Positions 3,122 to 32,683 of a DNA stretch of 41,267 nt are shown one piece after another; within the stretch, counting starts at the first letter, position 1; every line of letters starts with the position of its first letter. The position numbers and the translations under genes were made by a program. Source of the stretch: a virus; IMG/VR virus record IMGVR_UViG_3300045988_070117, positions 1 through 41,267 of that record, one strand, 5' to 3'. A model generated the notes under the pieces. The model was given only the letters and a program-made list of their open reading frames with translations, was not told the origin of the DNA and did no database searches.

Positions 3122-3155
3122 CGGGAGACTGTGGAAACACAGCCTCCTGATTTTT
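3120..3155 (+). terminator. Intrinsic terminator-like hairpin immediately downstream of the candidate late promoter
   Basis: 14-bp stem (1 mismatch, 1 G-U), GAAA loop, then a T5 run. A second hairpin lies at 3157-3188. Confidence 0.65.
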
Positions 3156-3271
3156 ACCGTGCGTGTCCAACACTCCTTCACGGCACGGGAAAGGGTACAG
3201 GGTAAACACGCGCCGTTATACGCAGTGGTGGGGGCGGGCGCGACTATGACAAGAAAGGCGGGTGAAACCGG

Positions 3272-3694
3272 ATGACGAACAAGCAAAAGCGATTTTGTGA
3301 AGAATACCTCGTGGATCTGAACGCGACGCAAGCCGCACTGAGGACAGGATACTCTGAAAAAACCGCCGCAAGCATAGCGAGCGAGAACCTACAGAAACCT
3401 GAGATACTGGGATATATTGCCAAATTACGTGTTGAGCAATCGAAGCGTACCGGTATAACCGCCGATAAAGTCCTCGAAGAGCTGTCGAAGGTCGCATTCT
3501 TCCCCGCGGAAGAATGCGAGCTCAAAGCGTCGGACAAGCTCCGCGCTCTCGAGCTGATCGGCAAGCACATCGGTATGTTTAAGTCCGACAGTGACGCTGA
3601 CGCTCCGGCTCTCGAGAAGCTTGACAAGATACTCGCCGAGGTGAGAACTGATGCTGACCGCGAAACAAAAACAGTATATCGCCGAGGCAAATAA
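3272..3694 (+). CDS. terS: Terminase small subunit
   Basis: MTNKQKRFCEEYLVDLNATQAALRTGYSEKTA is the classic terminase small-subunit (P27-type) N-terminus. The gene precedes terL. Confidence 0.9.
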   Translation: MTNKQKRFCEEYLVDLNATQAALRTGYSEKTAASIASENLQKPEILGYIAKLRVEQSKRTGITADKVLEELSKVAFFPAEECELKASDKLRALELIGKHIGMFKSDSDADAPALEKLDKILAEVRTDADRETKTVYRRGK

Positions 3695-4886
3695 ACGCTG
3701 GAATTTTAAGTCAGGTGCGGTCAGATCGGGCAAGTCCTATGTGGACGTCACGGCGGTCATCCCGATGCGGATACGCGAGCGGATAGGCAAAGACGGGCTG
3801 TGCTTTATCGTCGGCGTCAGTAAAGAGACCATCGAGCGAAACGTCCTACAGCCGATGCGCGAGCGGTACACCTCAAGCGTAGTCGGAACGATTAACTCAC
3901 GGAACATCGCCCGGGTGTGCGGCGAAGATGTCTACTGCCTCGGCGCCGAAAAAGTCTCGCAGGTGGCGAAGATTCAGGGTGCGTCCGCAAAATATATCTA
4001 CGGCGACGAGGTGGCGAAGTGGCACGAAGATGTGTTCAATATGCTGAAATCGCGTCTCGACAAGCCCTATTCATGTTTCGACGGCTCTCTCAACCCTGAG
4101 CACCCGACGCACTGGCTTAAAACATTTCTCGACAGTGACGCTGATATCTACTGTCAGCAGTACACGATTTTCGACAACACGTTCCTCTCGCCGGAGTTCG
4201 TCAAGAACCTCTGCAAGGAGTACGAGGGAACGATTTATTATGACCGCCTGATACTTGGCAAATGGGTGCGAGCTGAAGGCGCAATATACCGGCGTTTCGC
4301 GGACAACCCCGCGAAATTTCTTTTCACCGGCGAATTCAAGAAGCGCGAAATCACTGAAATCGTCATCGGCGTCGACTTCGGCGGCAACAAGTCCGGGCAC
4401 GCTTTCGTCGCGACCGCGAAAACAGGCGGCTATGACAAGCTCGTCGCGCTGGCGTCTGAACGCCACTTCGGCGACCTGGACCCGGGCGATATAAACGATC
4501 TCATTATTAAGTTCGCACAGCGCATCGCCGCGAAGTACGGCGAAATCGACTATATCTATTTCGACAACGCCGAAACCGTCCTCGGTCGGGGGCTTGCACG
4601 GGCTTTTGATAAAGCAATGCCCGCGACGATCGTACGACCGGCTATCAAAGCGTGCGTCAACGACCGTATAGCCGCCACACAGGCGCTTATGGGCGCGGGA
4701 AGGTTCTTATATACCCCCGACTGCGAAACGCTCAGGACGGCGCTCTCGGAGGCTGTGTGGGACGACAAGGCGCTTGACGACGTTCGTCTTGACGACGGCT
4801 CCACTGATATCGACTCACTTGACGCTTTTGAATACACCTTCGAGCGCGACATGAAGCGCTTCATAGATCACGAGGGACAAGTATGA
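3651..4886 (+). CDS. terL: Terminase large subunit (PBSX-type)
   Basis: Walker A SGAVRSGKS near the N-terminus. Size and position between terS and portal fit. Confidence 0.9.
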   Translation: MLTAKQKQYIAEANKRWNFKSGAVRSGKSYVDVTAVIPMRIRERIGKDGLCFIVGVSKETIERNVLQPMRERYTSSVVGTINSRNIARVCGEDVYCLGAEKVSQVAKIQGASAKYIYGDEVAKWHEDVFNMLKSRLDKPYSCFDGSLNPEHPTHWLKTFLDSDADIYCQQYTIFDNTFLSPEFVKNLCKEYEGTIYYDRLILGKWVRAEGAIYRRFADNPAKFLFTGEFKKREITEIVIGVDFGGNKSGHAFVATAKTGGYDKLVALASERHFGDLDPGDINDLIIKFAQRIAAKYGEIDYIYFDNAETVLGRGLARAFDKAMPATIVRPAIKACVNDRIAATQALMGAGRFLYTPDCETLRTALSEAVWDDKALDDVRLDDGSTDIDSLDAFEYTFERDMKRFIDHEGQV

Positions 4887-6226
4887 AATTTATTACTTTT
4901 GTGAAAGGACTGATACGGCAATTGTTTGCACCTGACCAGATAAGATCGGCGCTCGGCGTTAAACCAGCGCTGACGCCCGACACGGCAGAAAGATTAAAGC
5001 TGTGGGCAGATATGTATACCGGGCACGCGCCGTGGCTGTCCGACGATATTCGCTCCCTCAAAGTGGAGCAAGGCGTCGTCCGCGAGTTCGCTAACATCGC
5101 GGTCGGCGAGATGACGGCGACCGTCTCGGACGCGAATCTTGACGCGGCATTACAAGCTGTGCTGAGAAACTTCAACGTAAGCTTTCAGAGCGGGCTTGCA
5201 ACCGGCGCACTGGTCATTAAGCCTATGCCTGATCTGTCGGTACAGTTCCTGCCGCAGAACGCGTTTATACCGCTGTCCTACGACATCCGGGGACGTCTGA
5301 TAGACGTTATATTCCCGGAGACGGTTAAGGAGGATGAGCAGTATTTAACGCGCCTCGAGTGGCACCACCTCGACGAGACCGGGCTGACGATAACGAACCG
5401 TGCTTTTGTAAGTTATTCCGAAAATAATCTCGGAATCGAGACGAGTTTGTCGGTATTAGACAAATGGGCGAACATCGCGCCGGAGACGCGCTACCCCGGC
5501 ATGACGCGCCCGATCTACGGCTATTACCGAAATCCCATCGATAACACGATTGATGGCAGTAACGCCGGAGTTTCGATCTTCGATCCGGCGGTCGATTTAA
5601 TTAAAATCGTCGACACGCAGTTCGGACGGCTTGACTGGGAATTCGCTTCCGGTGAGCGTGCAATTCACGTCGACCCGGCAGCGCTTAAGAAGGACGACAA
5701 CGGTAAATTCCATCTTCCGAAGCTTTCGAAGCGGCTGTACAGAGCTGTGGACATCGATACCGGCAAGGACGGTAAAGGACTCTTCGAGGCGTTCTCGCCG
5801 GAGTTCCGAGAGACGTCGATTATTGCCGGTCTTGAAGAGTTTAAGCGGGCAATCGAGTTCGCCGTCGGGCTGTCGTACGGTGATATCTCAAACCCACAGA
5901 CTGTGGAGAAGACCGCAACTGAAATTCTCGCCGCGAAAAAGCGCAAGTACAATACAGTCAACGCGATTCAACAGAATCTTCGCGACTGTCTCGACGATCT
6001 CGTCTTCGCGATGGCGTTCTGGTCGGCGAAAACAATGTCCGGCTACGAATTTGTCTGCGACTTCAAAGACAGCATTCTGATCGACGAGGAGACCGAACGT
6101 CAGCAGGACCGCGCGGACGTCTCGATGGGTGTCATGAGGCTTGAAGAGTACCGCTCGAAGTGGTATGGTGAGAGCGTCGAGGACGCGCTTAAAAACCTCC
6201 CTGAGCGCGACGAAGTGGTAATGTGA
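4883..6226 (+). CDS. Portal protein (SPP1 gp6-like)
   Basis: 447 aa, ATGA-coupled to terL and followed by the MuF/gp7 gene. Confidence 0.85.
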   Translation: MKFITFVKGLIRQLFAPDQIRSALGVKPALTPDTAERLKLWADMYTGHAPWLSDDIRSLKVEQGVVREFANIAVGEMTATVSDANLDAALQAVLRNFNVSFQSGLATGALVIKPMPDLSVQFLPQNAFIPLSYDIRGRLIDVIFPETVKEDEQYLTRLEWHHLDETGLTITNRAFVSYSENNLGIETSLSVLDKWANIAPETRYPGMTRPIYGYYRNPIDNTIDGSNAGVSIFDPAVDLIKIVDTQFGRLDWEFASGERAIHVDPAALKKDDNGKFHLPKLSKRLYRAVDIDTGKDGKGLFEAFSPEFRETSIIAGLEEFKRAIEFAVGLSYGDISNPQTVEKTATEILAAKKRKYNTVNAIQQNLRDCLDDLVFAMAFWSAKTMSGYEFVCDFKDSILIDEETERQQDRADVSMGVMRLEEYRSKWYGESVEDALKNLPERDEVVM

Positions 6227-22793: not shown

Positions 22794-22971
22794 GGCTGAA
22801 AAAGCACTGATCAAGGCGGCGGGGCTGACCGAAGCCGACTTTACTGGGGAAAAGGACGAAAGCCCTGACCCGGTCACCGTCACAGACCCGGAGCTTGAAA
22901 AGCGCGTCGCGACGGTCGAAGAGACCGTTGAGGCGGTAAAAATTATCTTGATGGGGGAGGAGAAATTGTGA
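22780..22971 (+). CDS. Small hypothetical protein preceding the endolysin
   Basis: GTG start with GGAGG 9 nt upstream; GTGA-coupled to the endolysin gene. Confidence 0.5.
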   Translation: MALSEAEKALIKAAGLTEADFTGEKDESPDPVTVTDPELEKRVATVEETVEAVKIILMGEEKL

Positions 22972-23768
22972 GAGGAATCGACATTTCCCGGCACAACACC
23001 ATCCGGAGCTTCCCCGCGATAAAGTCACAGGGGGTGGATTTCTGCGTCATCCGCGCCGGGTACGGCACGGTGGTCGATGCCAAGTTTGAAGCCCACATAA
23101 AAGCGGCGAAAGACGCGGGAATGCTCGTCGGCGCATACTGGTTCTGTTATGCGCTCGACGTCGCCGACGCGCGACGGGAAGCCGAGGTATGCGCGGAGAC
23201 ACTGCGCGGGCATCAGCTCGACTTGCCAGTGTTTTATGATTTTGAGTACGACACGGAGCGGTACGCCGAGAAGCGCAAAGTGACATATAACCCGAAGCTC
23301 CGGACGGACATCATAGACACTTTTTGTACCGAAATGACGAAGCGCGGGTATAAAGCCGGTGTATACACAAACCCGGACTACTGGCTCTACAAGCTCAACT
23401 CCGACCGGCTGTCGAAGTACGCGCTGTGGATCGCATCGTACAAAAGCAAAGACGGCAAGGCGACTTTCGACACAGTGTTGCCGACCGACCTTCCGCCCGC
23501 GTTTCAGAACGCCATGCTGTGGCAGTTCGGCATGTGCAAAATGCCGAAAGCTGTCGGGTATGTAGACATCGACTATGGGTACGGCGTCAAGCCGCCCGCG
23601 CCAAAGAAAACGTATAAGGTCGGCGACGAATACACGATAAAGCCCGGCGACCTTTACACGACCGGACGGAAAGTCCCCGCACGGCTCGTCGGGAAGACTT
23701 ACACCGTCTGGCAGACGAAGCCCGGCGCGGTGCTGCTCAAAGAGATCGTGAGCTGGGTGAGCGTATGA
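22968..23768 (+). CDS. Endolysin: GH25 muramidase with a C-terminal SH3-like wall-binding domain
   Basis: RGIDISRHNTI...GVDFCVIRAGYGT is the GH25 signature. The C-terminus KTYKVGDEYTIKPGDLYTTGRKVP...VWQTKPG is SH3-like. Confidence 0.9.
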   Translation: MRGIDISRHNTIRSFPAIKSQGVDFCVIRAGYGTVVDAKFEAHIKAAKDAGMLVGAYWFCYALDVADARREAEVCAETLRGHQLDLPVFYDFEYDTERYAEKRKVTYNPKLRTDIIDTFCTEMTKRGYKAGVYTNPDYWLYKLNSDRLSKYALWIASYKSKDGKATFDTVLPTDLPPAFQNAMLWQFGMCKMPKAVGYVDIDYGYGVKPPAPKKTYKVGDEYTIKPGDLYTTGRKVPARLVGKTYTVWQTKPGAVLLKEIVSWVSV

Positions 23769-24121
23769 GATACTTAAAACGGCTGATTCTCGCGGTTTTA
23801 ATTTACCTCGCGGTTTACCTGCCGTTTATCGCCGTCCTGCAAGCCCTCACCGGCGCCGACCTGACCGCCGCCTCTTCGGTCGGCGGGATCGTCGGGGCTG
23901 TGGAACTCGCGCTCGGAAGTATTATTAAAATCACTGAAAACAAAGAGATAAGCAAGAAAGGATATATCGAAAATGAACAAGATAGATATAACGCCGATTC
24001 TGGAACTGGCAGTGAAGCTGATCTTCGCGGCAGTGACGATTTTCCTGATCCCGAAGATCAAGAAGCTGTTCGCGACAAAAGTCTCGGAGAGCGACCAGAA
24101 GAAACTGATCCGCTGGGCTGA
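23765..24121 (+). CDS. Two-TM membrane protein (holin-like); 3' end uncertain
   Basis: The TM segments are LILAVLIYLAVYLPFIAVLQAL and AASSVGGIVGAVELALGSII. The last ~149 nt overlap the next gene out of frame. Confidence 0.5.
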   Translation: MRYLKRLILAVLIYLAVYLPFIAVLQALTGADLTAASSVGGIVGAVELALGSIIKITENKEISKKGYIENEQDRYNADSGTGSEADLRGSDDFPDPEDQEAVRDKSLGERPEETDPLG

Positions 24122-24308
24122 AATCGCCGTACAGGCTGCGGAAGAGGCTGCGCGTTCCGGGCTGATCGACAAAAAGGCGAAGTATCAATACGCGAAAAGC
24201 TTCCTCGAGGCTCGCGGTGCGACCCTCGACGCCGACGCCATGCAGGCGCTGATCGACTCCACCGTGTGGGAACTTTTCAATCGCTTCAAAGACGAAAGCG
24301 AGGAATAA
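23973..24308 (+). CDS. Holin, LL-H-like
   Basis: N-terminal TM ILELAVKLIFAAVTIFLIP, then a helical tail with the IRWAEIAVQAAEEAARSG...KKAKYQYA pattern of LL-H holins. Confidence 0.7.
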   Translation: MNKIDITPILELAVKLIFAAVTIFLIPKIKKLFATKVSESDQKKLIRWAEIAVQAAEEAARSGLIDKKAKYQYAKSFLEARGATLDADAMQALIDSTVWELFNRFKDESEE

Positions 24309-24520
24309 TGAAGGCAGACGATCTGGCTGATCTCACGCGCACGGAGTGGGCGCGGCTTATCGATGAGTGCATCCATGATCGGCAGTGGCGCGAGATCTTC
24401 AAGGCTCGATGGCTCGACAACGAAAAGTTCGAGCCCCTCGCGGAGCATTTTCAGCTGTCCGTTCGACAAACACAGCGGATAGTAAAGGCTTGCGAGCAAA
24501 AGATACAACGGCATATATAA
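24308..24520 (+). CDS. Small HTH protein, sigma-region-4-like
   Basis: Track ORF trimmed to ATG 24308 (TAATG overlap, GAGGAA RBS). FEPLAEHFQLSVRQTQRIVKACEQKI looks like an HTH. Confidence 0.6.
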   Translation: MKADDLADLTRTEWARLIDECIHDRQWREIFKARWLDNEKFEPLAEHFQLSVRQTQRIVKACEQKIQRHI

Positions 24521-24527
24521 TGGCATG

Positions 24528-24557
24528 AAAGCGGCACGAAAGTGCCGCTTTTTTTTC
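24528..24557 (+). terminator. Strong intrinsic terminator ending the late operon
   Basis: GCGGCAC GAAA GTGCCGC flanked by AAA and T8. Confidence 0.85.
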
Positions 24558-24578
24558 GTACACTTTTGCGTCTGAATG

Positions 24579-24587
24579 TGGTACAAT
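24579..24587 (+). promoter_or_regulatory. Extended -10 promoter element (TGgTACAAT) without a clear -35
   Basis: Lies between the terminator and the RBS/ATG at 24603. Confidence 0.5.
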
Positions 24588-24602
24588 ATAGACACAGAGG
24601 TG

Positions 24603-24998
24603 ATGAAATTGTTTGAGAACTACCAATCCCCCTTTACTCCGCCGATGATGTGGGGACAACAGCGGCCACAAATGCAGCAGCAGCTCCCGCCACAGCAAGT
24701 AACGCGCGTCAGCGGGCAGAACGGCGCTCAGGCATACGCACTGCCGCCGAACTCGTCGGCTCTCTTGCTCGATGAGACCGCGCCTATCGTATGGCTGAAG
24801 ACCACAGACGGAGCCGGATACCCTACGCTTACGCCATACGATATTATCCCGCATCAGACACCGGCGCCGGTCGACGCGTCGAGCCTCGAGGCGCGAATTA
24901 AAAAGCTGGAGGACATGATATATGCAAAACCCGATACTGCAAGCGCTGAGGCAAAACCCGCAGCAAAACAACCCGCTGGCAATGGTGGCAAAGTTTAA
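24603..24998 (+). CDS. Hypothetical protein with a Gln/Pro-rich N-terminus
   Basis: Track ORF trimmed to ATG 24603 (AGAGG RBS). First gene of the post-lysis operon. Confidence 0.6.
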   Translation: MKLFENYQSPFTPPMMWGQQRPQMQQQLPPQQVTRVSGQNGAQAYALPPNSSALLLDETAPIVWLKTTDGAGYPTLTPYDIIPHQTPAPVDASSLEARIKKLEDMIYAKPDTASAEAKPAAKQPAGNGGKV

Positions 24999-25134
24999 GG
25001 AGTTTGCCCGCGGGATGACGCCGGAGCACGCAAAGCAGCTCGTCGAAGAAAAGCTTCGCACTGGCGAAATGTCTCAGGCACAATTCGAACAGCTCAAATC
25101 GCAAGCTCAGGATTTTATGCGATTGTTACAATGA
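24922..25134 (+). CDS. Small helical hypothetical protein
   Basis: GGAGGA lies 8 nt before ATG 24922. Overlaps the upstream ORF by 77 nt. Confidence 0.55.
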   Translation: MQNPILQALRQNPQQNNPLAMVAKFKEFARGMTPEHAKQLVEEKLRTGEMSQAQFEQLKSQAQDFMRLLQ

Positions 25135-25181
25135 AATATAGGCAATAGCCTATAAATATTATGAAAGGTGGTATAACCACA

Positions 25182-25850
25182 ATGGATGGAACTCCCTCCC
25201 TCTCCGATATCGCGGCGGTAACCCGCGACAACGACGGCGCATTCGGCGGCTCCGGCGGCTGGATGTGGATAGTCGTGATCTTCCTCTTCGCCTTCATGGG
25301 CGGCGGCTTCGGCTGGGGAAATCGCGGCGCGGCGGCAGAACAGCCCGTGACCGAGGCCGGACTGTGTAACGCCATGAACTTTAACAACCTCGAGAACGCA
25401 GTCGGCAGACTGTCTGACCAGACCCAGAACCAGACTATGACGCTGGGCAACGGCATCTGCAACCTCGGCTACGAAATGCAGGGCAACATCGGACAGCTTG
25501 GCAAGGAAATCGCGCTCGGACAGGCTAACCTCGGCACTCAGATCGCGGGCAGCACGTCTGAGCTCTCCCGGCAGCTCGCCGAGTGCTGCTGCACCACACA
25601 GCGCGGCATAGATAGCGTTAATTACAATAACGCTATCAACACGGCGGCTATCAATGCCAACATTGACGCGAAATTTGCGGCAATGGAAAAGGCACAGCTG
25701 GAGCAGACGATTGCTGCACAGCAGAATCAGATCAATCAGCTGAACCTTCAGGCACAGCTCTGCGGCGTCGTAAGATACCCGATGTCGTACAGCTACACTG
25801 CCGGACAGTCGCCCTTCTGCGGCGGCTGCGGGTGCAACGGCAACGTATAA
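25182..25850 (+). CDS. Cys-rich membrane protein with a Gly-rich TM segment (alternative start 25161)
   Basis: AAAGGTGG lies before ATG 25182. Contains GGSGGWMWIVVIFLFAFMGGGFGWGN, then a Gln/Asn-rich helical region. Cys motifs are CCC and a C-terminal FCGGCGCNGNV. Confidence 0.65.
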   Translation: MDGTPSLSDIAAVTRDNDGAFGGSGGWMWIVVIFLFAFMGGGFGWGNRGAAAEQPVTEAGLCNAMNFNNLENAVGRLSDQTQNQTMTLGNGICNLGYEMQGNIGQLGKEIALGQANLGTQIAGSTSELSRQLAECCCTTQRGIDSVNYNNAINTAAINANIDAKFAAMEKAQLEQTIAAQQNQINQLNLQAQLCGVVRYPMSYSYTAGQSPFCGGCGCNGNV

Positions 25851-25881
25851 GGTATAAACGCCCTTTACGGCGAGGATTCAA

Positions 25882-25908
25882 GGGGCGGCAATAGCTGCCC
25901 CAATTTTA
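25882..25908 (+). terminator. Weak terminator-like hairpin
   Basis: GGGGCGGC AATA GCTGCCCC followed by AATTTTA (poor U-tract). Confidence 0.35.
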
Positions 25909-25929
25909 ATAAACGGAGGAAAGATTAAA

Positions 25930-26328
25930 ATGAAATCTGCTATATACACGGCGAATACCACTGCGGCTACACTTGCGGTCGGCGACATTATCCCACTCGG
26001 AACGACCATCCGGCGCTACGGGTGTAATCTCCGGCAGGATGGCAACGCCGTCACGACAACCGGTCGCGGGTATTACAAGATCACCGCCGCCGTCACAGCA
26101 GCACCCACAGCAGCCGGAGAGATCGGTGCGACACTGCTTAAGGATGGCATAGCAGTCACCGGTGCAAGCGCGTCAGCGACCGCCACGGGAGCCGGTGACG
26201 TTGTAATGCTGCCTATAACGGCAATCGTCCGTAACCTCACTGACTGTGATTCCTCGCTCCTCGCGCTGCGTCTTGACGACGGCGCCGGACAGGTTACCAA
26301 CGTCGCGGTAACTGTGGAGAAGCTGTGA
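25930..26328 (+). CDS. BclA C-terminal-domain-like (TNF/C1q-type jelly-roll) protein
   Basis: The pattern GYYKITAAVTA...LLKDGIAVTGASA...NVAVTVEKL parallels BclA-CTD (GFYKITVIANT...IQVNGVPVPGTGS...SIIIEKV). There is no collagen-like region. Confidence 0.6.
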   Translation: MKSAIYTANTTAATLAVGDIIPLGTTIRRYGCNLRQDGNAVTTTGRGYYKITAAVTAAPTAAGEIGATLLKDGIAVTGASASATATGAGDVVMLPITAIVRNLTDCDSSLLALRLDDGAGQVTNVAVTVEKL

Positions 26329-26822
26329 TGAAAGCCCACATACAGGACTATCGCGCCCGGCTCGAGAAGGAAATCGCCGAGTACCTCGCGCTTCCGGCAA
26401 GCGAGAAAAGCGCGAGGGCCGTCGACGGTATGCTCTCGTGCTGGGAACATATCCGGTCGGTCGAGCGGTGTCTGTACGGCGGCGAGGGGCATCAGAGCGC
26501 GGCTCTGAGCGCCGCCGATCTCACGGCATGGAATTCCCGTATGGACAACGCTGACGGCACCCGCGGTGGGCATTGGACGATCTCACAGACGTCCGGAGCC
26601 GCGCAGAGTGTGGGAGTGGCGTTTGAGCACATCACGCCCGAGGCGTGGAACGCCACAATGAATATGATGTACTCGGACTATTACCCCACAGCTGAGGCAT
26701 ACGGCACAGATCAGCCGGAGTTTTACGCACAGCTCGCGAAGGATTTTCTGTTCGATAAAGACGGCGGCGAACCGCTGAAAAAACTTGCAGAATATTACCG
26801 CGAAATTGTAAAAAACGCTTGA
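26328..26822 (+). CDS. Hypothetical protein (NADGTRGGHW motif)
   Basis: TGATG coupling and a GGAGAAG RBS. Last gene of the operon. Confidence 0.65.
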   Translation: MKAHIQDYRARLEKEIAEYLALPASEKSARAVDGMLSCWEHIRSVERCLYGGEGHQSAALSAADLTAWNSRMDNADGTRGGHWTISQTSGAAQSVGVAFEHITPEAWNATMNMMYSDYYPTAEAYGTDQPEFYAQLAKDFLFDKDGGEPLKKLAEYYREIVKNA

Positions 26823-26847
26823 CAAACGCGTTTGCTTGTGGTATAAT
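26819..26847 (+). promoter_or_regulatory. Consensus sigma-A promoter for a short non-coding unit
   Basis: TTGACA (26819-26824), a 17-nt spacer, then TGgTATAAT (26839-26847). Confidence 0.7.
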
Positions 26848-26852
26848 GAGAA

Positions 26853-26949
26853 TGCAGGGGCGGCGAACCCCGGCAGCCGCCTGCAAAGGCGCGGATTAAA
26901 AAGAACTCATATATCGAGGGAAAAGGGAGCGGAAACGCTCCTTTTTCTT
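26853..26949 (+). ncRNA. Candidate ~95-nt small RNA
   Basis: Own promoter and own terminator. A 5' GC-rich hairpin (26853-26885) is followed by an A/U-rich single-stranded stretch. There is no ORF with an RBS. Confidence 0.5.
26921..26949 (+). terminator. Intrinsic terminator of the sRNA unit
   Basis: AAAAG GGAGCG GAAA CGCTCC TTTTTCTT. Confidence 0.8.
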
Positions 26950-26998
26950 GTTCATATAACGTTTACAAATAAATACGGTACTTTTTCTCGTAAACCTA

Positions 26999-28474: not shown

Positions 28475-28496
28475 TACACGTATTTTACACGATTTT
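28475..28496 (+). repeat. Two tandem TACACG(T/A)(A/T)TTT repeats (11-bp period), second pair of candidate arm-type sites
   Basis: TACACGTATTT at 28475-28485 and TACACGATTTT at 28486-28496. They overlap the int stop codon. Confidence 0.5.
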
Positions 28497-29615
28497 ATTC
28501 AGGATTTCGAGCGCGTGCTCCTCTTCACGCGGGTATAAGTGGGAGTATGTATTCCACGTGATCGTAACATTTTTGTGCCCGAGCCGTCGTGCGACTTCCT
28601 GAATATTGATACCGCTGTTGGCAAGCAGCGACGCGTGCGAGTGTCGGAACTCGTGTATTGTGCGGTGTGGAAGTCCTGCCGCCTCCGCGAAAGCCTGATT
28701 CCGTTTCTCGATTGTCGAATCTCTCAGACAGCCAACACCACGGCAGACGAGCCAATTGTCGTTAAAGCCTGTCATGACCTGTTGTCGCTTTCTGTGGTCC
28801 TCGAGAGCGGCGACAAGAGGCTGTGGCATTTGTATGTCACGGACAGACGATAGCGTCTTTACGAGCAGCTCTGTTTCCCTCTTGCCCTTGATCTTCTGGG
28901 ATATGCTTCGCCGGACCTTGATAACATTCCCGTCGATATCGGACCATTGCAGCGCGTGTATCTCACCTTTTCTCATCCCCGTGTAAAACGCGACCATGAA
29001 GAAGATATAATAGCCCCACTCGTCAAGATCACCGCTTGCCTCGGCTCGCTGTTTCGCGACAGCAATGTAGCGGAGAAATTCGTCCGAAGTATAGTAACGG
29101 ACTTTTTTCTCCGGTACGGCAAACTCCGGTGTTTTGTATCCACCGATCTGCCGTATGGGATTCTTCGGGACATATTCCATTCGTACAGCGTAGTTGATCA
29201 TCGTCGATAGCACCTTAAGATACGTGCTGGACGTTGCCGGGCTCAGACCGAGGGCAAGAATATCCGATTTGTATTTCTGCGCCGCTACAACATTAAATTT
29301 GTCGAGCTTTATGTCCCCGACGAGAGGGATGATAGTATGTTCAAAGGTACGTCGTTTCTTGTCCCACGTGGTCTCGCGAAGCTCGTGCTTGCAGACCTCG
29401 ATATACTCGTCATACAGATCTTTCAACGTCTTCCGCGCCGCGGGAGGCGTTTTTTTGATCTCTTCGGACAGCTTCCGCTCGAGATCCTTTGCTTCGGCCG
29501 AGCCGTAGGCTACCCGGTCGATCTGCCGGGGCTTGCCGAACTGATCGACGTAGTTGATACGTACACGGTACTGTTGTTTACCGTCTTTTTTGCCGTCCAT
29601 TTTGTAGATCGGCAT
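28485..29615 (-). CDS. int: Tyrosine integrase
   Basis: The C-terminus HEFRHSHASLLANSGINIQEVARRLGHKNVTITWNTYSHLY has the R..H-x-x-R..H..Y catalytic pattern. Start trimmed to the ATG (MPIYK) with an AAGGAG RBS. Confidence 0.92.
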   Translation of the reverse strand: MPIYKMDGKKDGKQQYRVRINYVDQFGKPRQIDRVAYGSAEAKDLERKLSEEIKKTPPAARKTLKDLYDEYIEVCKHELRETTWDKKRRTFEHTIIPLVGDIKLDKFNVVAAQKYKSDILALGLSPATSSTYLKVLSTMINYAVRMEYVPKNPIRQIGGYKTPEFAVPEKKVRYYTSDEFLRYIAVAKQRAEASGDLDEWGYYIFFMVAFYTGMRKGEIHALQWSDIDGNVIKVRRSISQKIKGKRETELLVKTLSSVRDIQMPQPLVAALEDHRKRQQVMTGFNDNWLVCRGVGCLRDSTIEKRNQAFAEAAGLPHRTIHEFRHSHASLLANSGINIQEVARRLGHKNVTITWNTYSHLYPREEEHALEILNKIV

Positions 29616-29636
29616 GATGTTCACGCTCCTTTTGCT

Positions 29637-29678
29637 AAAAAGTGGTTATTTCCGGAATGGAAACAACCACTTATTTTT
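29637..29678. terminator. Bidirectional intrinsic terminator between the Zn-ribbon membrane gene and int
   Basis: 14-bp stem AAGTGGTTATTTCC/GGAAACAACCACTT (1 mismatch) flanked by A5 and T-rich runs. Confidence 0.7.
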
Positions 29679-30243
29679 ATTCCACGATTACACAACGGTC
29701 TATGGTAAGGGTTAAATTAAAATTACCCACCTTGCCATAAAGCGTGATGGTATCTCCAACTGCGAGATTCGCGACCTTATCAACCTCACTCTGGTCGCTG
29801 AAATAACATTGTGCATATTCCCACGTTAAGTCTGTGCCGTCGTTGACGCAGACATATATATTGTTAAGCACATCTTTCCCAATGTCCTTAACTTTGCCGG
29901 TGATCTTCACGAACTTGTCTTTGTACTTCTGATCAGCGGCGACTTCGTTTGTCTGGTATTCGTCGAGCATGGTCATAACATCGGCAAATTCATATTCGAT
30001 AGTAGGGGAATCTTTCCCGACAACTACCGTTCCATTCTGGTTGGTATCTATAGAACCTCCCGTAGGCTGATCGGAGTTATTTTTGCCGCTGTTGCCGCCG
30101 ATAACGGCGATCGCAATAACGGCTACAACAATAACCGGAATCAACCATTTCGGCATTTTCTTCTTCCTGCTGACATTACCTCCACAGTATGGGCAGGTGT
30201 TCGCGTCGTCCGGAATGTCGCGGTTGCATTTCTTACACTGCAT
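29677..30243 (-). CDS. Zn-ribbon / single-TM / extracellular OB-fold-like (tRNA_anti-like) membrane protein
   Basis: MQCKKCNRDIPDDANTCPYCG, then TM WLIPVIVVAVIAIAVIG. The C-terminus reads ...VAADQKYKDKFVKITGKVKDI...GDTITLYGKV. Confidence 0.7.
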   Translation of the reverse strand: MQCKKCNRDIPDDANTCPYCGGNVSRKKKMPKWLIPVIVVAVIAIAVIGGNSGKNNSDQPTGGSIDTNQNGTVVVGKDSPTIEYEFADVMTMLDEYQTNEVAADQKYKDKFVKITGKVKDIGKDVLNNIYVCVNDGTDLTWEYAQCYFSDQSEVDKVANLAVGDTITLYGKVGNFNLTLTIDRCVIVE

Positions 30244-31936: not shown

Positions 31937-32245
31937 ATGAAAACAGTAGTCAAGAAAGTAGTCATCGAGGGCATGGATTTTGCCCTCGTCCGCGAACCGG
32001 AGTGGGGCACCGATCACCAGTATGGCACGGTGCCGTACTCCGAGGTCGACGAGAACGGACGTCTGAAGCGCGCCCTCCTGAACGGGTTTGAAATGTGCGT
32101 CGCCGCAACTCCTGAGGAAGCAATCGAACGCCGCGAAGACGTCCTGCTCGCCCAGAAGTGGAAAGCAAAACACCCGAATGCAACCGAAGTCGAAGAAATG
32201 AACGCAATAGCGGATATTGTCAGACGCAGAGTGACGGGGGCATAA
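31937..32245 (+). CDS. Hypothetical early protein
   Basis: GAGGAG RBS. Confidence 0.65.
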   Translation: MKTVVKKVVIEGMDFALVREPEWGTDHQYGTVPYSEVDENGRLKRALLNGFEMCVAATPEEAIERREDVLLAQKWKAKHPNATEVEEMNAIADIVRRRVTGA

Positions 32246-32278
32246 GCCCCCGGTAATGCGGCAGGCAGAAGGAACTAT

Positions 32279-32683
32279 ATGGCCAAAGAAAAAGATGGTA
32301 TATACAAATGTTCAAAATGCGGTTGTGAAGAGTTTTACCGAGAAAAAACGGGAACGAAAAGATGCGTAAAATGTCAAAAAGAACGCATGAAAAAAATATA
32401 TGCCAGTGACGCGTACAAGTCAAAACACAGAGCGAGCGATCGATTCCGCAGACGTGGATGCACGGAAGCACAATACAATGAAAGGATGCAAAAGCAAGCC
32501 GGAAAATGCGAAATATGCGGCAAAGAACTATGGCAAGAGCTTAGAATAGACCATGACCATAAGTCCGGCGCGTTAAGAGGTTTGCTATGCGATAAATGCA
32601 ATTTAGGGATTGGACATTTCGCAGATTCCCCGGACGTTCTGCGAAAAGCGGCTCAATACCTTGAAAAATACACAAACAGTTAG
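32279..32683 (+). CDS. Recombination endonuclease VII family protein
   Basis: CEICGKEL...LRIDHDHKSGALRGLLCDKCNLGIGHF is the Endo VII signature. Confidence 0.88.
   Translation: MAKEKDGIYKCSKCGCEEFYREKTGTKRCVKCQKERMKKIYASDAYKSKHRASDRFRRRGCTEAQYNERMQKQAGKCEICGKELWQELRIDHDHKSGALRGLLCDKCNLGIGHFADSPDVLRKAAQYLEKYTNS

What the first reader, a model, noticed from the sequence alone, without database searches (positions are those of the whole stretch)
24528..26822. Separately promoted five-gene operon after the lysis genes, encoding unassignable secreted/membrane-type proteins
Seen: the late operon ends at a strong terminator (24528-24557). An extended -10 (TGgTACAAT, 24579-24587) then precedes five tightly packed ORFs. 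These are a Gln/Pro-rich protein, a 70-aa helical protein (77-nt overlap with the first), a Cys-rich membrane protein, a BclA-CTD-like jelly-roll protein and a 164-aa protein with the motif NADGTRGGHW. None matches virion, lysis or replication functions that I recognise. The position between lysis and attP is the classic moron/lysogenic-conversion slot. Inference: this is a cell-envelope or spore-surface modifying module, or a superinfection-exclusion module. A Cys-rich protein paired with a BclA-type domain recalls exosporium building blocks. This is speculative.
Basis: partly seen in the sequence, partly recalled or inferred. Interest (0 to 1): 0.7.

Follow-up and report, generated by a model that had tools for sequence, protein, structure and literature searches.

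The report
Mobile gut-phage membrane-protein accessory cassette
The five genes are real: they form a swappable accessory cassette, built around a cysteine-rich membrane protein, that sits in its own promoter-to-terminator slot after the phage lysis genes and recurs in many gut viruses of hosts that do not form spores, so it is not a spore-surface module and its function remains unknown.

Summary
A strong terminator (24527-24557) and an extended -10 promoter (24579-24587) precede five tightly packed ORFs, all under purifying selection (pN/pS 0-0.15).

Supported:
- The block is a moron-type plug-in. Of about 20 relatives sharing the window's endolysin-holin-HTH backbone, 3 carry it, 15 carry a different three-gene cassette of similar design in the same slot, and one slot is empty.
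- The slot's terminator, promoter and right-hand terminator are conserved around both cassette types.
- The O1-O4 core moves on its own. It is a 1.7-kb island at 90% identity in otherwise unrelated phages, and a 2.15-kb indel among Clostridium perfringens phages that are 96% identical.

Not supported:
- Exosporium or spore surface. The cassette sits in prophages of Collinsella and Phascolarctobacterium.
- O3 (phrog_16490) and O5 (DUF7841) also occur in Crassvirales, and O3 in Methanomassiliicoccales viruses.
- O4 is a bare BclA-C-terminal-like domain with no collagen stalk.
- Only O3 has a membrane segment; no protein has a signal peptide.

Function is inferred only. My best guess (about 0.3) is a membrane-anchored complex that gives a phage-competition or exclusion benefit. 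An accessory lysis role is the main rival.

The parts
24527..24557 (+). Intrinsic terminator that ends the late/lysis operon and forms the left border of the slot.
   Evidence: 11-bp stem, -20.4 kcal/mol, z = -4.45, U8 tail; 4 compensatory pairs across nine relatives, with 91.6% of cells paired.
24559..24587 (+). Slot promoter: -35-like TACACT (24559-24564), 17-nt spacer, extended -10 TGgTACAAT (24579-24587).
   Evidence: Read from the sequence. The element T(T/A)CACT-17-TGnTAnnAT is conserved in nine relatives that carry two different cassettes. Activity was not tested. The consensus scan did not call it.
24603..24998 (+). O1, 131 aa. It has a Gln/Pro-rich low-complexity N-terminus, a conserved core of about 50 residues (VxRVxGxxGAxAYxxxPNSxxLLxDxxxPxxWLKxxDGAG), a short coil and a basic tail. 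Family phrog_21718.
   Evidence: E 3.9e-9; alignment of 32 homologues; found in 134 of 163 loci, always just upstream of O2/O3; pN/pS 0-0.09. No Pfam or PDB match.
24922..25134 (+). Its start lies inside the 3' end of O1 (77-nt overlap, own GGAGG). Family phrog_22984.
   Evidence: E 1.6e-9; an O2-type ORF (O2, c34 or c41) in 82 + 31 + 19 loci, always between O1 and O3; pN/pS 0-0.10.
25137..25154 (.). Perfect 7-bp palindrome TATAGGC-AATA-GCCTATA between O2 and O3. Role unknown.
   Evidence: -8.7 kcal/mol, z = -2.7. This is weak evidence.
25182..25850 (+). O3, 222 aa, the signature protein (phrog_16490). It has a short N-terminus (SLSDIAAVT..ND), one Gly-flanked transmembrane helix, a helical region of about 125 residues with an invariant CCCxTxR-ID motif, and a C-terminal CGGCGC tail.
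   Evidence: E 1.6e-17; 3824 homologues, none with a Pfam domain; conserved Cys columns. AF2 predicts a TM helix plus helices 68-95 and 99-193, but pLDDT is only 49; median of 8 Cys, all after the TM segment; topology undecided.
25882..25901 (+). GC-rich hairpin between O3 and O4 with a poor U tract. It could be a partial terminator or an mRNA-stabilising element.
   Evidence: 8-bp stem, -17.6 kcal/mol, z = -4.4.
25930..26328 (+). O4, 132 aa, a free-standing BclA-C-terminal-like (C1q/TNF-type jelly-roll) domain.
   Evidence: BclA_C E 2.1e-5, 24.9 bits, below the gathering score of 38; the family profile's top three PDB hits are BclA, at 5.6e-5 to 2.4e-4; the 120 best-listed of 177 homologues are 131-133 aa, some labelled PF18573; found in 123 of 163 loci.
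26328..26822 (+). O5, 164 aa, a DUF7841 protein that is all-alpha and soluble. This is the variable fifth position of the cassette.
   Evidence: E 4.2e-18. AF2 pLDDT 91.4 with seven helices; no PDB fold match (best E 2.2); the named matches at E <= 0.001 in BFVD are annotated DUF7841, all but one (an unnamed entry, and cr6_1 labelled sigma factor/ubiquitin-like), several from crAss-like phages; the fifth gene is O5 in 51 loci, a ferritin-like c6 in 47 and c44 in 26. The three types are unrelated to one another.
26819..26912 (+). Cassette-specific 3' end. It holds a perfect TTGACA-17-TGgTATAAT promoter that overlaps the O5 stop codon, followed by a GC-rich 5' hairpin. This is a candidate small-RNA start.
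   Evidence: 12 of 12 promoter positions; the 100-nt unit folds at -41.5 kcal/mol, z = -3.5; homology to alt-cassette relatives resumes only at about 26913-26926; no Rfam family.
26926..26950 (+). Terminator hairpin GGAGCGGAAACGCTCC plus U tract, forming the conserved right border of the slot.
   Evidence: Read from the sequence; the hairpin appears in the fold; the region from 26913/26926 onward is shared with relatives that carry the other cassette.
24266..24520 (+). Context only, not part of the cassette. An 84-aa sigma-70 region-4-like HTH protein, the last gene of the late operon.
   Evidence: TIGR02937 E 2.8e-4, sub-threshold; kept by relatives that lack O1-O5; similar small HTH genes (c12, c11) precede the cassette in 76 of 163 loci.
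22968..24308 (+). Context only: the lysis genes. GH25 endolysin at 22968-23768 and LL-H holin at 23973-24308, plus an overlapping two-TM ORF at 23765-24121.
   Evidence: Glyco_hydro_25 E 7e-27. Phage_holin_6_1 E 1.3e-6.

Best explanation
Shown:
- The block is one allele of a plug-in accessory cassette.
- It occupies an expression slot directly after the lysis genes, bounded by a conserved terminator and promoter on the left and a conserved terminator on the right.
- Its core, O1-O2-O3-O4, is a horizontally mobile unit present in many gut phages. The fifth gene varies between DUF7841 and a ferritin-like protein.
- It is dispensable for phage propagation.

Inferred:
- The products assemble at the cytoplasmic membrane.
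- O3 is the anchor: one transmembrane helix, a coiled-coil stalk of about 125 residues, and a Cys-rich tail that binds metal or cross-links the oligomer.
- O4, as a BclA-type trimer, is the interaction module.
- O1 and O2 (translationally coupled) and O5 are soluble partners.

Most speculative step: because the unit is transcribed from its own sigma-A-type promoter, it can be made in the lysogen as well as during infection. It then acts as a phage-competition device of the moron type, giving exclusion or resistance at the membrane, rather than as a spore or envelope decoration.
For: Colinear cassette:
- In 163 loci fetched through O3, O1 is present in 134, an O2-type ORF in 132, O4 in 123 and a fifth gene in 124. 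Order and strand are always the same, with unrelated flanks.

Slot and allelism:
- Among relatives with the same GH25-holin-HTH backbone, 3 carry O1-O5.
- 15 carry a different three-gene cassette that also starts with a Gly-rich single-pass, coiled-coil protein with a CGCGC tail.
- One slot is empty.
- Terminator and promoter are conserved across both types, with compensatory stem changes. The right-hand terminator is shared.

Mobility and dispensability:
- A Collinsella prophage and an unrelated viral contig share only O1-O4 (1715 bp, 89.7% identity).
- The C. perfringens phages 17DYC, XP41-N3 and CPD1 carry a 2.15-kb O1-O3 insert. It is absent from phiCP39-O, 26F, 13O, 34O and 9O, which are about 96% identical to them.

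Membrane anchoring:
- Only O3 has a hydrophobic helix. A long helix is predicted.

O4:
- It resembles the BclA C-terminal domain.

General knowledge:
- Moron architecture, and the frequent role of morons in exclusion, come from established knowledge (Juhala/Hendrix morons; HK97 gp15; Cumby et al. 2012). They are not a tool result.
Against: - There is no direct evidence on expression timing, on complex formation or on any resistance phenotype.
- Known exclusion proteins are usually single small membrane proteins or lipoproteins, not sets of 4-5 proteins.
- PADLOC and NCBIfam give no defence-system match. The only hit is a coiled-coil-type ZorA match at E 0.02.
- O3 also occurs in Crassvirales and in C. 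perfringens phage isolates whose fetched regions show no integrase. It sits next to holin and endolysin genes in two of three Crassvirales/Bacteroides phages examined. That fits a lytic-cycle or lysis role as well or better.
- The promoter is inferred from conservation only.
- O3 topology is undecided, so the bulk of the complex may be cytoplasmic or external.
Confidence: 0.3

Rival explanations
1. Accessory lysis or egress module. O3 is a holin-like, antiholin-like or lysis-timing membrane protein. Its architecture recalls the T4 holin T: a short N-terminus, one TM segment and a large Cys-containing C-terminal domain. The soluble partners would tune when, or how completely, the cell opens.
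For: Position directly after the lysis genes:
- In the window: GH25, LL-H holin, HTH, then the cassette.
- In the Phascolarctobacterium prophage: amidase, then the cassette.
- In many IMG/VR lineages: amidase or holin-like gene, HTH, then O1.
- Endolysin-type domains are the commonest Pfam class within 3.5 kb upstream, about 15 domain hits among ORFs from 55 diverse loci.
- In crAss-like cr1_1 the DUF7841 and O3 genes lie between 'pholin' and the transpeptidase-type endolysin. In cr116_1 they follow the holin and endolysin.

Other points:
- The alternative cassette in the same slot also begins with a glycine-zipper-like TM protein.
- Presence in phages without an integrase nearby fits a lytic-cycle role.
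Against: - In the window the cassette is separated from the lysis genes by a strong, conserved terminator and has its own sigma-A-like promoter. A lethal membrane effector would not be expected there.
- The phage already has a holin.
- The cassette is dispensable among near-identical C. perfringens phages.
- O3 has no similarity to any holin or spanin family in Pfam, PHROGs or NCBIfam.
- A jelly-roll trimer and a Q/P-rich protein have no precedent in lysis cassettes.
- In Firmicutes siphophages almost any accessory gene ends up 'after lysis'.
Confidence: 0.22
2. Non-essential virion decoration or gut-adhesion module. O4 (a C1q/TNF-like trimer), with O1 and O3 as a fibre or linker, would decorate particles and mediate binding to something common to the gut, such as mucus or host molecules. 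That would explain a spread that ignores host phylum.
For: - BclA-type trimers are surface-display domains.
- Database annotators labelled O3 relatives 'spike protein/glycoprotein' or 'outer capsid protein/viral fiber'.
- In Dulem virus 35 the cassette lies between genes annotated minor and major capsid protein.
- Every hit listed comes from gut or faecal samples, across phages of Bacillota, Actinomycetota and Bacteroidota and putative archaeal viruses.
- Dispensability fits a decoration protein.
Against: - O3 has a true hydrophobic TM helix, which is unusual for tailed-phage particles.
- The cassette lies outside the morphogenesis operon, behind a terminator.
- The 'spike' and 'fiber' labels are unreviewed and probably come from coiled-coil similarity. 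They are not discussed in either of the two crAss-like phage papers I checked.
- No virion proteomics were found.
Confidence: 0.1
3. Metal or redox module suited to strictly anaerobic hosts. The metallothionein-like Cys tail and CCC motif of O3 would work with a ferritin- or rubrerythrin-like partner in the fifth position. Together they would bind iron or another metal, or sense oxidation, at the membrane.
For: - O3 family members carry a median of 8 Cys, including an invariant CCCxTxR motif and CxC-type tails.
- In 73 of 163 loci the fifth gene is ferritin-like. c6 matches Rubrerythrin at 5.7e-4 and PDB BfrB at 4.6e-5, with conserved E...ExxH. For c44, all of the top 20 PDB hits are ferritins, at E 0.008-0.09.
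- All sources are anaerobic gut communities.
Against: - In the window itself the fifth gene is DUF7841. It is not ferritin-like by profile comparison or by fold.
- The ferritin-like gene remains in C. perfringens phages that have lost O1-O3, so it may simply be an independent neighbour.
- No metal-binding family matches O3.
- This idea gives no role to O1, O2 or O4.
Confidence: 0.1
4. One reading: an exosporium or spore-surface building module, pairing a Cys-rich protein with a BclA-type protein.
For: - O4 is BclA-C-terminal-like and O3 is Cys-rich.
- Some hosts, such as C. perfringens and many Clostridia, do sporulate.
Against: - The cassette is in prophages of Collinsella and Phascolarctobacterium, genera I know as non-sporulating.
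- O3 relatives occur in Crassvirales and in Methanomassiliicoccales viruses.
- O4 has no collagen-like repeats and no leader, and its listed homologues are all 131-133 aa.
- No protein has a secretion signal.
- O3 shows no similarity to ExsY, CotY or CdeC-type families in Pfam or NCBIfam.
Confidence: 0.03

Closest known systems
BclA C-terminal domain (Bacillus anthracis exosporium nap; Pfam PF18573; PDB 1WCK, 2Z5W, 3TWI)
   Same: O4 and its family match this C1q/TNF-like jelly-roll domain in sequence. Pfam gives E 2e-5 and the PDB profile search 5.6e-5. UniRef names one homologue 'BclA C-terminal domain-containing protein'.
   Different: - There is no collagen-like GXX stalk and no N-terminal exosporium-targeting leader.
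- The protein is a 132-aa stand-alone domain.
- It is phage-encoded, in hosts that include genera labelled Collinsella and Phascolarctobacterium.
- The Pfam score is below the gathering cut-off.
- The fold itself was not modelled here.
Morons / lysogenic-conversion cassettes of temperate phages (Juhala and Hendrix; for example HK97 gp15 exclusion protein). Cited from general knowledge.
   Same: - It is an independent promoter-genes-terminator unit inserted between backbone genes at the end of the late operon.
- It is present, absent or replaced among close relatives.
- It includes a membrane protein.
   Different: - It has five genes rather than one or two.
- The same core travels between phages of different bacterial phyla.
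- Its signature protein also occurs in Crassvirales and in C. perfringens phage isolates with no integrase in the regions fetched.
- No phenotype is known.
T4 holin T with its RI/RIII partners, and i-spanins (Rz). Architectural analogy only, from general knowledge.
   Same: O3 has a short N-terminus, one TM helix and a large helical C-terminal domain with cysteines. It lies next to lysis genes, and the small helical O2 could in principle play an RIII-like role.
   Different: - O3 has no sequence similarity to any holin or spanin family.
- No lipoprotein partner is present.
- Hosts include monoderms.
- It is transcribed separately behind a terminator and is dispensable.
Pfam DUF7841 and PHROGs 16490 / 21718 / 22984 (catalogued families of unknown function)
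   Same: O5, O3, O1 and O2 are members by score. DUF7841 and phrog_16490 are also found in crAss-like phages. phrog_16490 is annotated in the archaeal viruses vir215 and vir335.
   Different: These are catalogue entries with no function, structure or literature; a search for DUF7841 found no paper. I found no description of their linkage into a mobile colinear cassette.
Cys-rich exosporium or coat lattice proteins (ExsY/CotY, CdeC/CdeM). Cited from general knowledge.
   Same: They are cysteine-rich and are paired in their systems with BclA-type proteins.
   Different: - No sequence match was found.
- O3 is a membrane-anchored coiled coil.
- The hosts are mostly not known as spore-formers.

Membership tests
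BclA / exosporium collagen-like glycoprotein family | C-terminal C1q/TNF-like jelly-roll trimerisation domain (PF18573). | tested here: inconclusive
   Pfam gives E 2.1e-5 but 24.9 bits, below the gathering score of 38. The family profile's top three PDB hits are BclA at 5.6e-5 to 2.4e-4. Some homologues are precomputed as PF18573. The fold was not modelled.
BclA / exosporium collagen-like glycoprotein family | Central collagen-like GXX repeat region. | tested here: not met
   O4 is 132 aa with no GXX repeats. The 120 best-listed homologues are 131-133 aa.
BclA / exosporium collagen-like glycoprotein family | N-terminal exosporium-targeting leader, and a spore-forming host. | tested here: not met
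   The O4 N-terminus, MKSAIYTANTT, runs straight into the domain. The cassette is found in Collinsella and Phascolarctobacterium prophages.
Pfam DUF7841 (PF25223) | Score above the curated gathering threshold over the domain. | tested here: met
   O5 scores 66.1 bits against a cut-off of 25.2, covering profile positions 21-113 of 114. Nearly all named matches at E <= 0.001 in BFVD are annotated DUF7841.
PHROG 16490 / 21718 / 22984 | Significant HMM match. | tested here: met
   O3 E 1.6e-17, O1 E 3.9e-9, O2 E 1.6e-9. All three families have unknown function.
Moron (independent accessory transcription unit in a phage genome) | Own promoter and terminator flanking the insert. | tested here: met
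   The upstream terminator, the promoter and the downstream terminator are conserved around two different inserts. Promoter activity itself was not tested.
Moron (independent accessory transcription unit in a phage genome) | Present in some close relatives and absent or replaced in others, at the same backbone position. | tested here: met
   Three relatives carry O1-O5, 15 carry the alternative cassette and one slot is empty. There is also an indel among C. perfringens phages.
Moron (independent accessory transcription unit in a phage genome) | Base composition different from the surrounding genome. | tested here: inconclusive
   The cassette is 56.9% GC and the whole window 53.7%. The difference is small.
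Holins / spanins | Sequence membership in a holin or spanin family; for spanins, also a lipoprotein partner with a lipobox. | tested here: not met
   O1-O5 have no holin or spanin hit in Pfam, PHROGs or NCBIfam. No signal peptide or lipobox is present in O1, O2, O4 or O5. Hole-forming activity cannot be tested here.
Known anti-phage defence systems (PADLOC-DB) | HMM match to a component of a described system. | tested here: not met
   The only hit is a ZorA tail match at E 0.02 for O3, of coiled-coil type. The other four proteins have no hit.
Ferritin-like superfamily (tested for O5) | Four-helix bundle with E...ExxH di-iron motifs. | tested here: not met
   hhalign of O5 against c6 and c44 gives probabilities below 1%. 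Foldseek of a pLDDT-91 model finds no ferritin. By contrast, the alternative fifth genes c6 and c44 do match ferritins.

The most novel reading that the evidence does not exclude
The O3-centred gene set is a previously undescribed membrane system shared across gut viruses whatever their host: phages of Bacillota, Actinomycetota and Bacteroidota, and putative viruses of Methanomassiliicoccales. Its job would be tied to the anaerobic gut rather than to any one cell envelope. It might be a redox- or metal-sensing switch built from the Cys-rich tail with ferritin-like or DUF7841 partners. Alternatively it might present a C1q/TNF-like trimer that acts on the animal host or on mucus.
Probability: 0.15. 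Interest if true: 0.85.

Novelty: new variant of a known kind. Interest (0 to 1): 0.6.

Why it matters
The cassette's proteins belong to large families with no known function:
- O3 has 3824 homologues in the metagenome protein collection, none with a Pfam domain.
- DUF7841 has no literature.

Three results here make them experimentally approachable:
- The families are linked into one mobile unit.
- The unit is dispensable.
- It alternates with a second cassette of similar design in a defined promoter-terminator slot.

Natural phage pairs with and without the cassette exist, and cassette swaps at a known junction are possible. If the unit proves to be an exclusion, lysis-timing or gut-adaptation device, thousands of 'hypothetical' genes in human gut viromes, including some in crAss-like phages, would gain a function. 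The work also removes a tempting but wrong spore-coat annotation for phage BclA-like proteins.

Tried and rejected
Structure and fold searches
- AF2 of O3 with 64 homologues gave pLDDT 49. The model was unusable for fold search, so it was not searched.
- Foldseek of the good O5 model against the PDB found nothing (best E 2.2).
- Profile searches of O1, O3 and O5 against PDB sequences found nothing.

Family and homology tests
- PADLOC and NCBIfam gave no real hits.
- I tested whether the three kinds of fifth gene (O5, c6, c44) are related. hhalign was negative, so a unified 'ferritin-like fifth gene' was rejected.
- I tested whether the small beta-rich and coiled-coil proteins next to O3 in Crassvirales and C. 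perfringens phages are O4 or O1 homologues. hhalign was negative. Only O3 and DUF7841 are shown to be shared with Crassvirales.
- I tested whether the alternative 190-aa TM protein is an O3 homologue. Only the C-terminal CGCGC motif aligns, so I call it an analogue, not a relative.

Regulation and topology
- I tested whether the small HTH gene belongs to the cassette. This was rejected for the window's lineage, because relatives without O1-O5 keep it.
- A search for an extended -10 upstream of O1 across diverse loci found none shared, and in several loci the HTH-O1 gap is under 50 nt. The separate promoter is therefore a feature of this lineage's slot, not of the cassette.
- The positive-inside rule for O3 topology was undecided.

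Host and literature
- An exact-sequence look-up of O1, to find the window's host, returned only two short contigs. The host is unknown.
- Literature searches on DUF7841, phage BclA/exosporium, crAss lysis and C. perfringens phages, plus two crAss-like phage papers searched for 'spike', 'glycoprotein', 'holin' and related terms, found nothing about these genes.

Full report
**1. What the window is**

The window is a temperate tailed-phage genome.
- It has a terminase and a long plus-strand run of ORFs I read as structural (only the terminase matched Pfam).
- These are followed by a GH25 endolysin (22968-23768) and an LL-H holin (23973-24308).
- Next comes an 84-aa HTH protein resembling sigma region 4 (24266-24520).
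- Then comes the block in question.
- After it lie three small ORFs, a tyrosine integrase on the minus strand (28485-29624), Cro/CI-type repressors and early genes.

**2.

Terminator.
- The hairpin at 24527-24552 plus U8 folds at -20.4 kcal/mol (z = -4.45).
- In an alignment of nine related phages, 4 of its 11 pairs change on both sides and still pair.
- 91.6% of cells are paired, against 38-74% when the partner is slid.

Promoter.
- The extended -10 TGgTACAAT (24579-24587) is there.
- Consensus scanning alone is worthless here: 7 hits against 5.3 expected, and this site was not called because its -35 matches only 3 of 6.
- However, the -35-like T(T/A)CACT, the 17-nt spacing and TGnTAnnAT are kept in all nine relatives, even though the genes downstream differ.

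ORFs.
- The five ORFs are as described, including the 77-nt overlap of O2 on O1 and the TGATG junction of O4 and O5.
- All five are under purifying selection against three relatives (pN/pS 0.00-0.15).
- O3 probably starts at 25182, as its homologues do (222 aa).

**3. The proteins**

- **O1** (phrog_21718) has a low-complexity Q/P/N/Y-rich N-terminus, a conserved core of about 50 residues and a short coil. It matches nothing in Pfam or the PDB.
Its start lies inside the end of O1 in most loci.
- **O3** (phrog_16490) is the only protein with a hydrophobic helix.
  - After the helix come about 125 helical residues with a nearly invariant CCCxTxR-ID motif and a CGGCxGC tail.
  - The family median is 8 Cys, all C-terminal to the helix.
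  - Its AF2 model was poor (pLDDT 49), and its topology is undecided by flanking charges.
- **O4** matches the BclA C-terminal domain at profile level. It is a bare 132-aa domain, as are the 120 best-listed of its 177 homologues.
- **O5** is a clear DUF7841 member.
  - A confident all-alpha model (pLDDT 91) has no PDB counterpart.
  - In BFVD its named matches at E <= 0.001 are almost all annotated DUF7841, several from crAss-like phages.
- O1, O2, O4 and O5 have no signal peptide or TM segment. 'Secreted/membrane-type' therefore applies to O3 alone.

**4. It is a conserved colinear cassette**

- O3 has 3824 homologues in the metagenome protein collection, none with a Pfam domain.
- I fetched 163 loci through O3 from viral and genome collections and searched them with HMMs built here.
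  - O1 is found in 134 and an O2-type ORF in 132.
  - O4 is found in 123.
  - A fifth gene is found in 124: DUF7841 in 51, a ferritin/rubrerythrin-like protein of about 100 aa in 47, and a ferritin-like protein of about 189 aa in 26.
  - Order and strand never vary.
- The three fifth-gene types are unrelated to each other. The core is therefore O1-O4.
- Flanking genes are not conserved.
- Upstream neighbours are most often endolysins, holins and tail genes. Downstream neighbours are integrases or early genes.

**5. It is mobile, dispensable and sits in a defined slot**

(a) A Collinsella prophage on a 289-kb contig and an unrelated viral contig share only O1-O4: 1715 bp at 89.7% identity, with nothing else aligning.

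(b) The C. perfringens phages 17DYC, XP41-N3 and CPD1 carry O1-O3 plus two small ORFs as a 2.15-kb insert. The insert is missing from phiCP39-O, 26F, 13O, 34O and 9O, which are otherwise about 96% identical and keep the adjacent ferritin-like gene.

(c) I fetched the window's own lineage through its endolysin.
- About 20 contigs keep the endolysin-holin-HTH backbone.
- Three carry O1-O5.
- Fifteen carry a different three-gene cassette in exactly the same place.
- One has an empty slot.

The other cassette starts with a 190-aa protein of the same design as O3: a short N-terminus, a glycine-rich TM helix, a coiled coil, a CC motif and a C-terminal PKCGCGC tail. It shows no detectable overall homology to O3.

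Homology between the two kinds of phage runs through the terminator and promoter and stops about at the transcription start. It resumes at 26913-26926, at a second terminator. The promoter and both terminators belong to the slot, not to the cassette. The HTH gene is part of the backbone in this lineage.

**6. Host range rules out the spore idea**

- The full cassette lies in a Phascolarctobacterium prophage on a 545-kb contig. There it sits between an amidase and the host's ABC transporter, ExbB and TonB genes.
- It also lies in the Collinsella prophage. By my own knowledge, neither genus forms spores.
- O3 relatives occur in several crAss-like phages and in a Bacteroides uniformis phage.
  - They are annotated there as 'spike protein/glycoprotein' or 'viral fiber', with no supporting text in either of the two crAss-like phage papers I checked.
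  - In cr1_1 a DUF7841 gene sits immediately upstream of O3.
- phrog_16490 is also annotated in two viruses assigned to Methanomassiliicoccales.
- The O1 and O4 families were not detected in Crassvirales.
- Every source listed is gut or faecal.
- Many genome hits are MAG bins of phage-sized contigs, so only the long contigs are reliable for naming a host.

**7. What it most likely does**

Nothing here tests function. The architecture suggests a membrane-anchored assembly:
- O3 as anchor and stalk, with a metal-binding or cross-linking Cys tail.
- O4 as a trimeric interaction module.
- O1/O2 as a translationally coupled soluble pair.
- A variable fifth partner.

Four features are the hallmarks of morons, which often act in phage-phage competition. 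This link is general knowledge, not a tool result.
- The unit has its own promoter and terminators.
- It alternates with an analogous cassette.
- It can be lost.
- It sits at the prophage end.

I therefore put an exclusion or competition role first, at about 0.3.

An accessory lysis or lysis-timing role is close behind, at about 0.22.
- For it: the unit follows the lysis genes in very different phages, including two crAss-like phages, and O3 is built like a class III holin.
- Against it: the terminator, the separate promoter, the dispensability and the lack of any holin or spanin homology.

Virion decoration or gut adhesion (0.1) and a metal or redox role (0.1) remain open. The exosporium reading is at about 0.03.

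**8. Novelty**

- The component families are catalogued (PHROGs, a Pfam DUF) but have no function and no literature.
- I found no description of their linkage into a mobile cassette, of the alternating slot, or of the spread across host phyla.
- I file it as a new variant of a known kind (an accessory moron cassette) rather than as categorically new. Its mode of genomic existence is familiar, and its function, which would decide the matter, is unknown.

Noticed in passing
window 32225-32277 (+): Rfam type-P5 twister ribozyme match above the gathering score (42.3 bits against 37.6, E 1.2e-5). It lies in the early region between ORFs 31937-32245 and 32279-32683.
   Followed up: no
window 26819-26950 (+): A perfect sigma-70 promoter (TTGACA-17-TGgTATAAT) overlaps the O5 stop codon. 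It is followed by a structured, ORF-less stretch of about 100 nt (-41.5 kcal/mol, z = -3.5) that ends at the slot terminator. This is a candidate small RNA. Its 5' part is specific to the cassette and its terminator is shared with relatives. No Rfam family matches.
   Followed up: partly
L171 8673-9923 (also L172-L189, L203, L225, L228, L233): An alternative three-gene cassette occupies the same slot in relatives of the window phage. It encodes a 190-aa protein with a glycine-zipper TM helix, a coiled coil and a CGCGC tail, then 114-aa and 96-aa proteins. None has a Pfam or PHROG family.
   Followed up: partly
window 24553-24572 and the aligned positions in L170-L188: The sequence TCGT(A/T)CAC(T/A)TT, between the terminator U-run and the -10 box, is almost invariant in nine phages. 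It could simply be the -35 region, or it could be an operator for the adjacent sigma-region-4-like HTH protein.
   Followed up: no
window 23765-24121 and 23973-24308 (+): Two ORFs upstream of the cassette overlap by 149 nt in different frames, and both are conserved at protein level in relatives. One is a two-TM protein with an acidic tail; the other is the LL-H holin.
   Followed up: no
upstream flanks of several O3 loci (alignment A7): AgrB (4 ORFs) and response-regulator plus Trans_reg_C domains (3 ORFs each) occur within 3.5 kb upstream of the cassette in some loci. This hints at agr-like quorum-sensing genes on phages or at prophage borders.
   Followed up: no
L167 (Caudoviricetes sp. vir215) 3152-5759: In a virus assigned to Methanomassiliicoccales, the phrog_16490 gene lies just downstream of a reverse transcriptase (possibly a diversity-generating retroelement) and a tail protein gene.
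   Followed up: no
L169 (Clostridium phage phiCP39-O) 2734-3261; L001 7628-8155: A 175-aa ferritin-like gene (c44 type; the record's note says 'contains ferritin domain') persists in C. perfringens phages whether or not the O1-O3 insert is present.
   Followed up: partly
window 29677-30243 (-): Next to the integrase is a 188-aa protein with an N-terminal zinc ribbon, a hydrophobic segment and a tRNA_anti-like OB domain (E 6.6e-15). It may be another accessory or moron gene.
   Followed up: no
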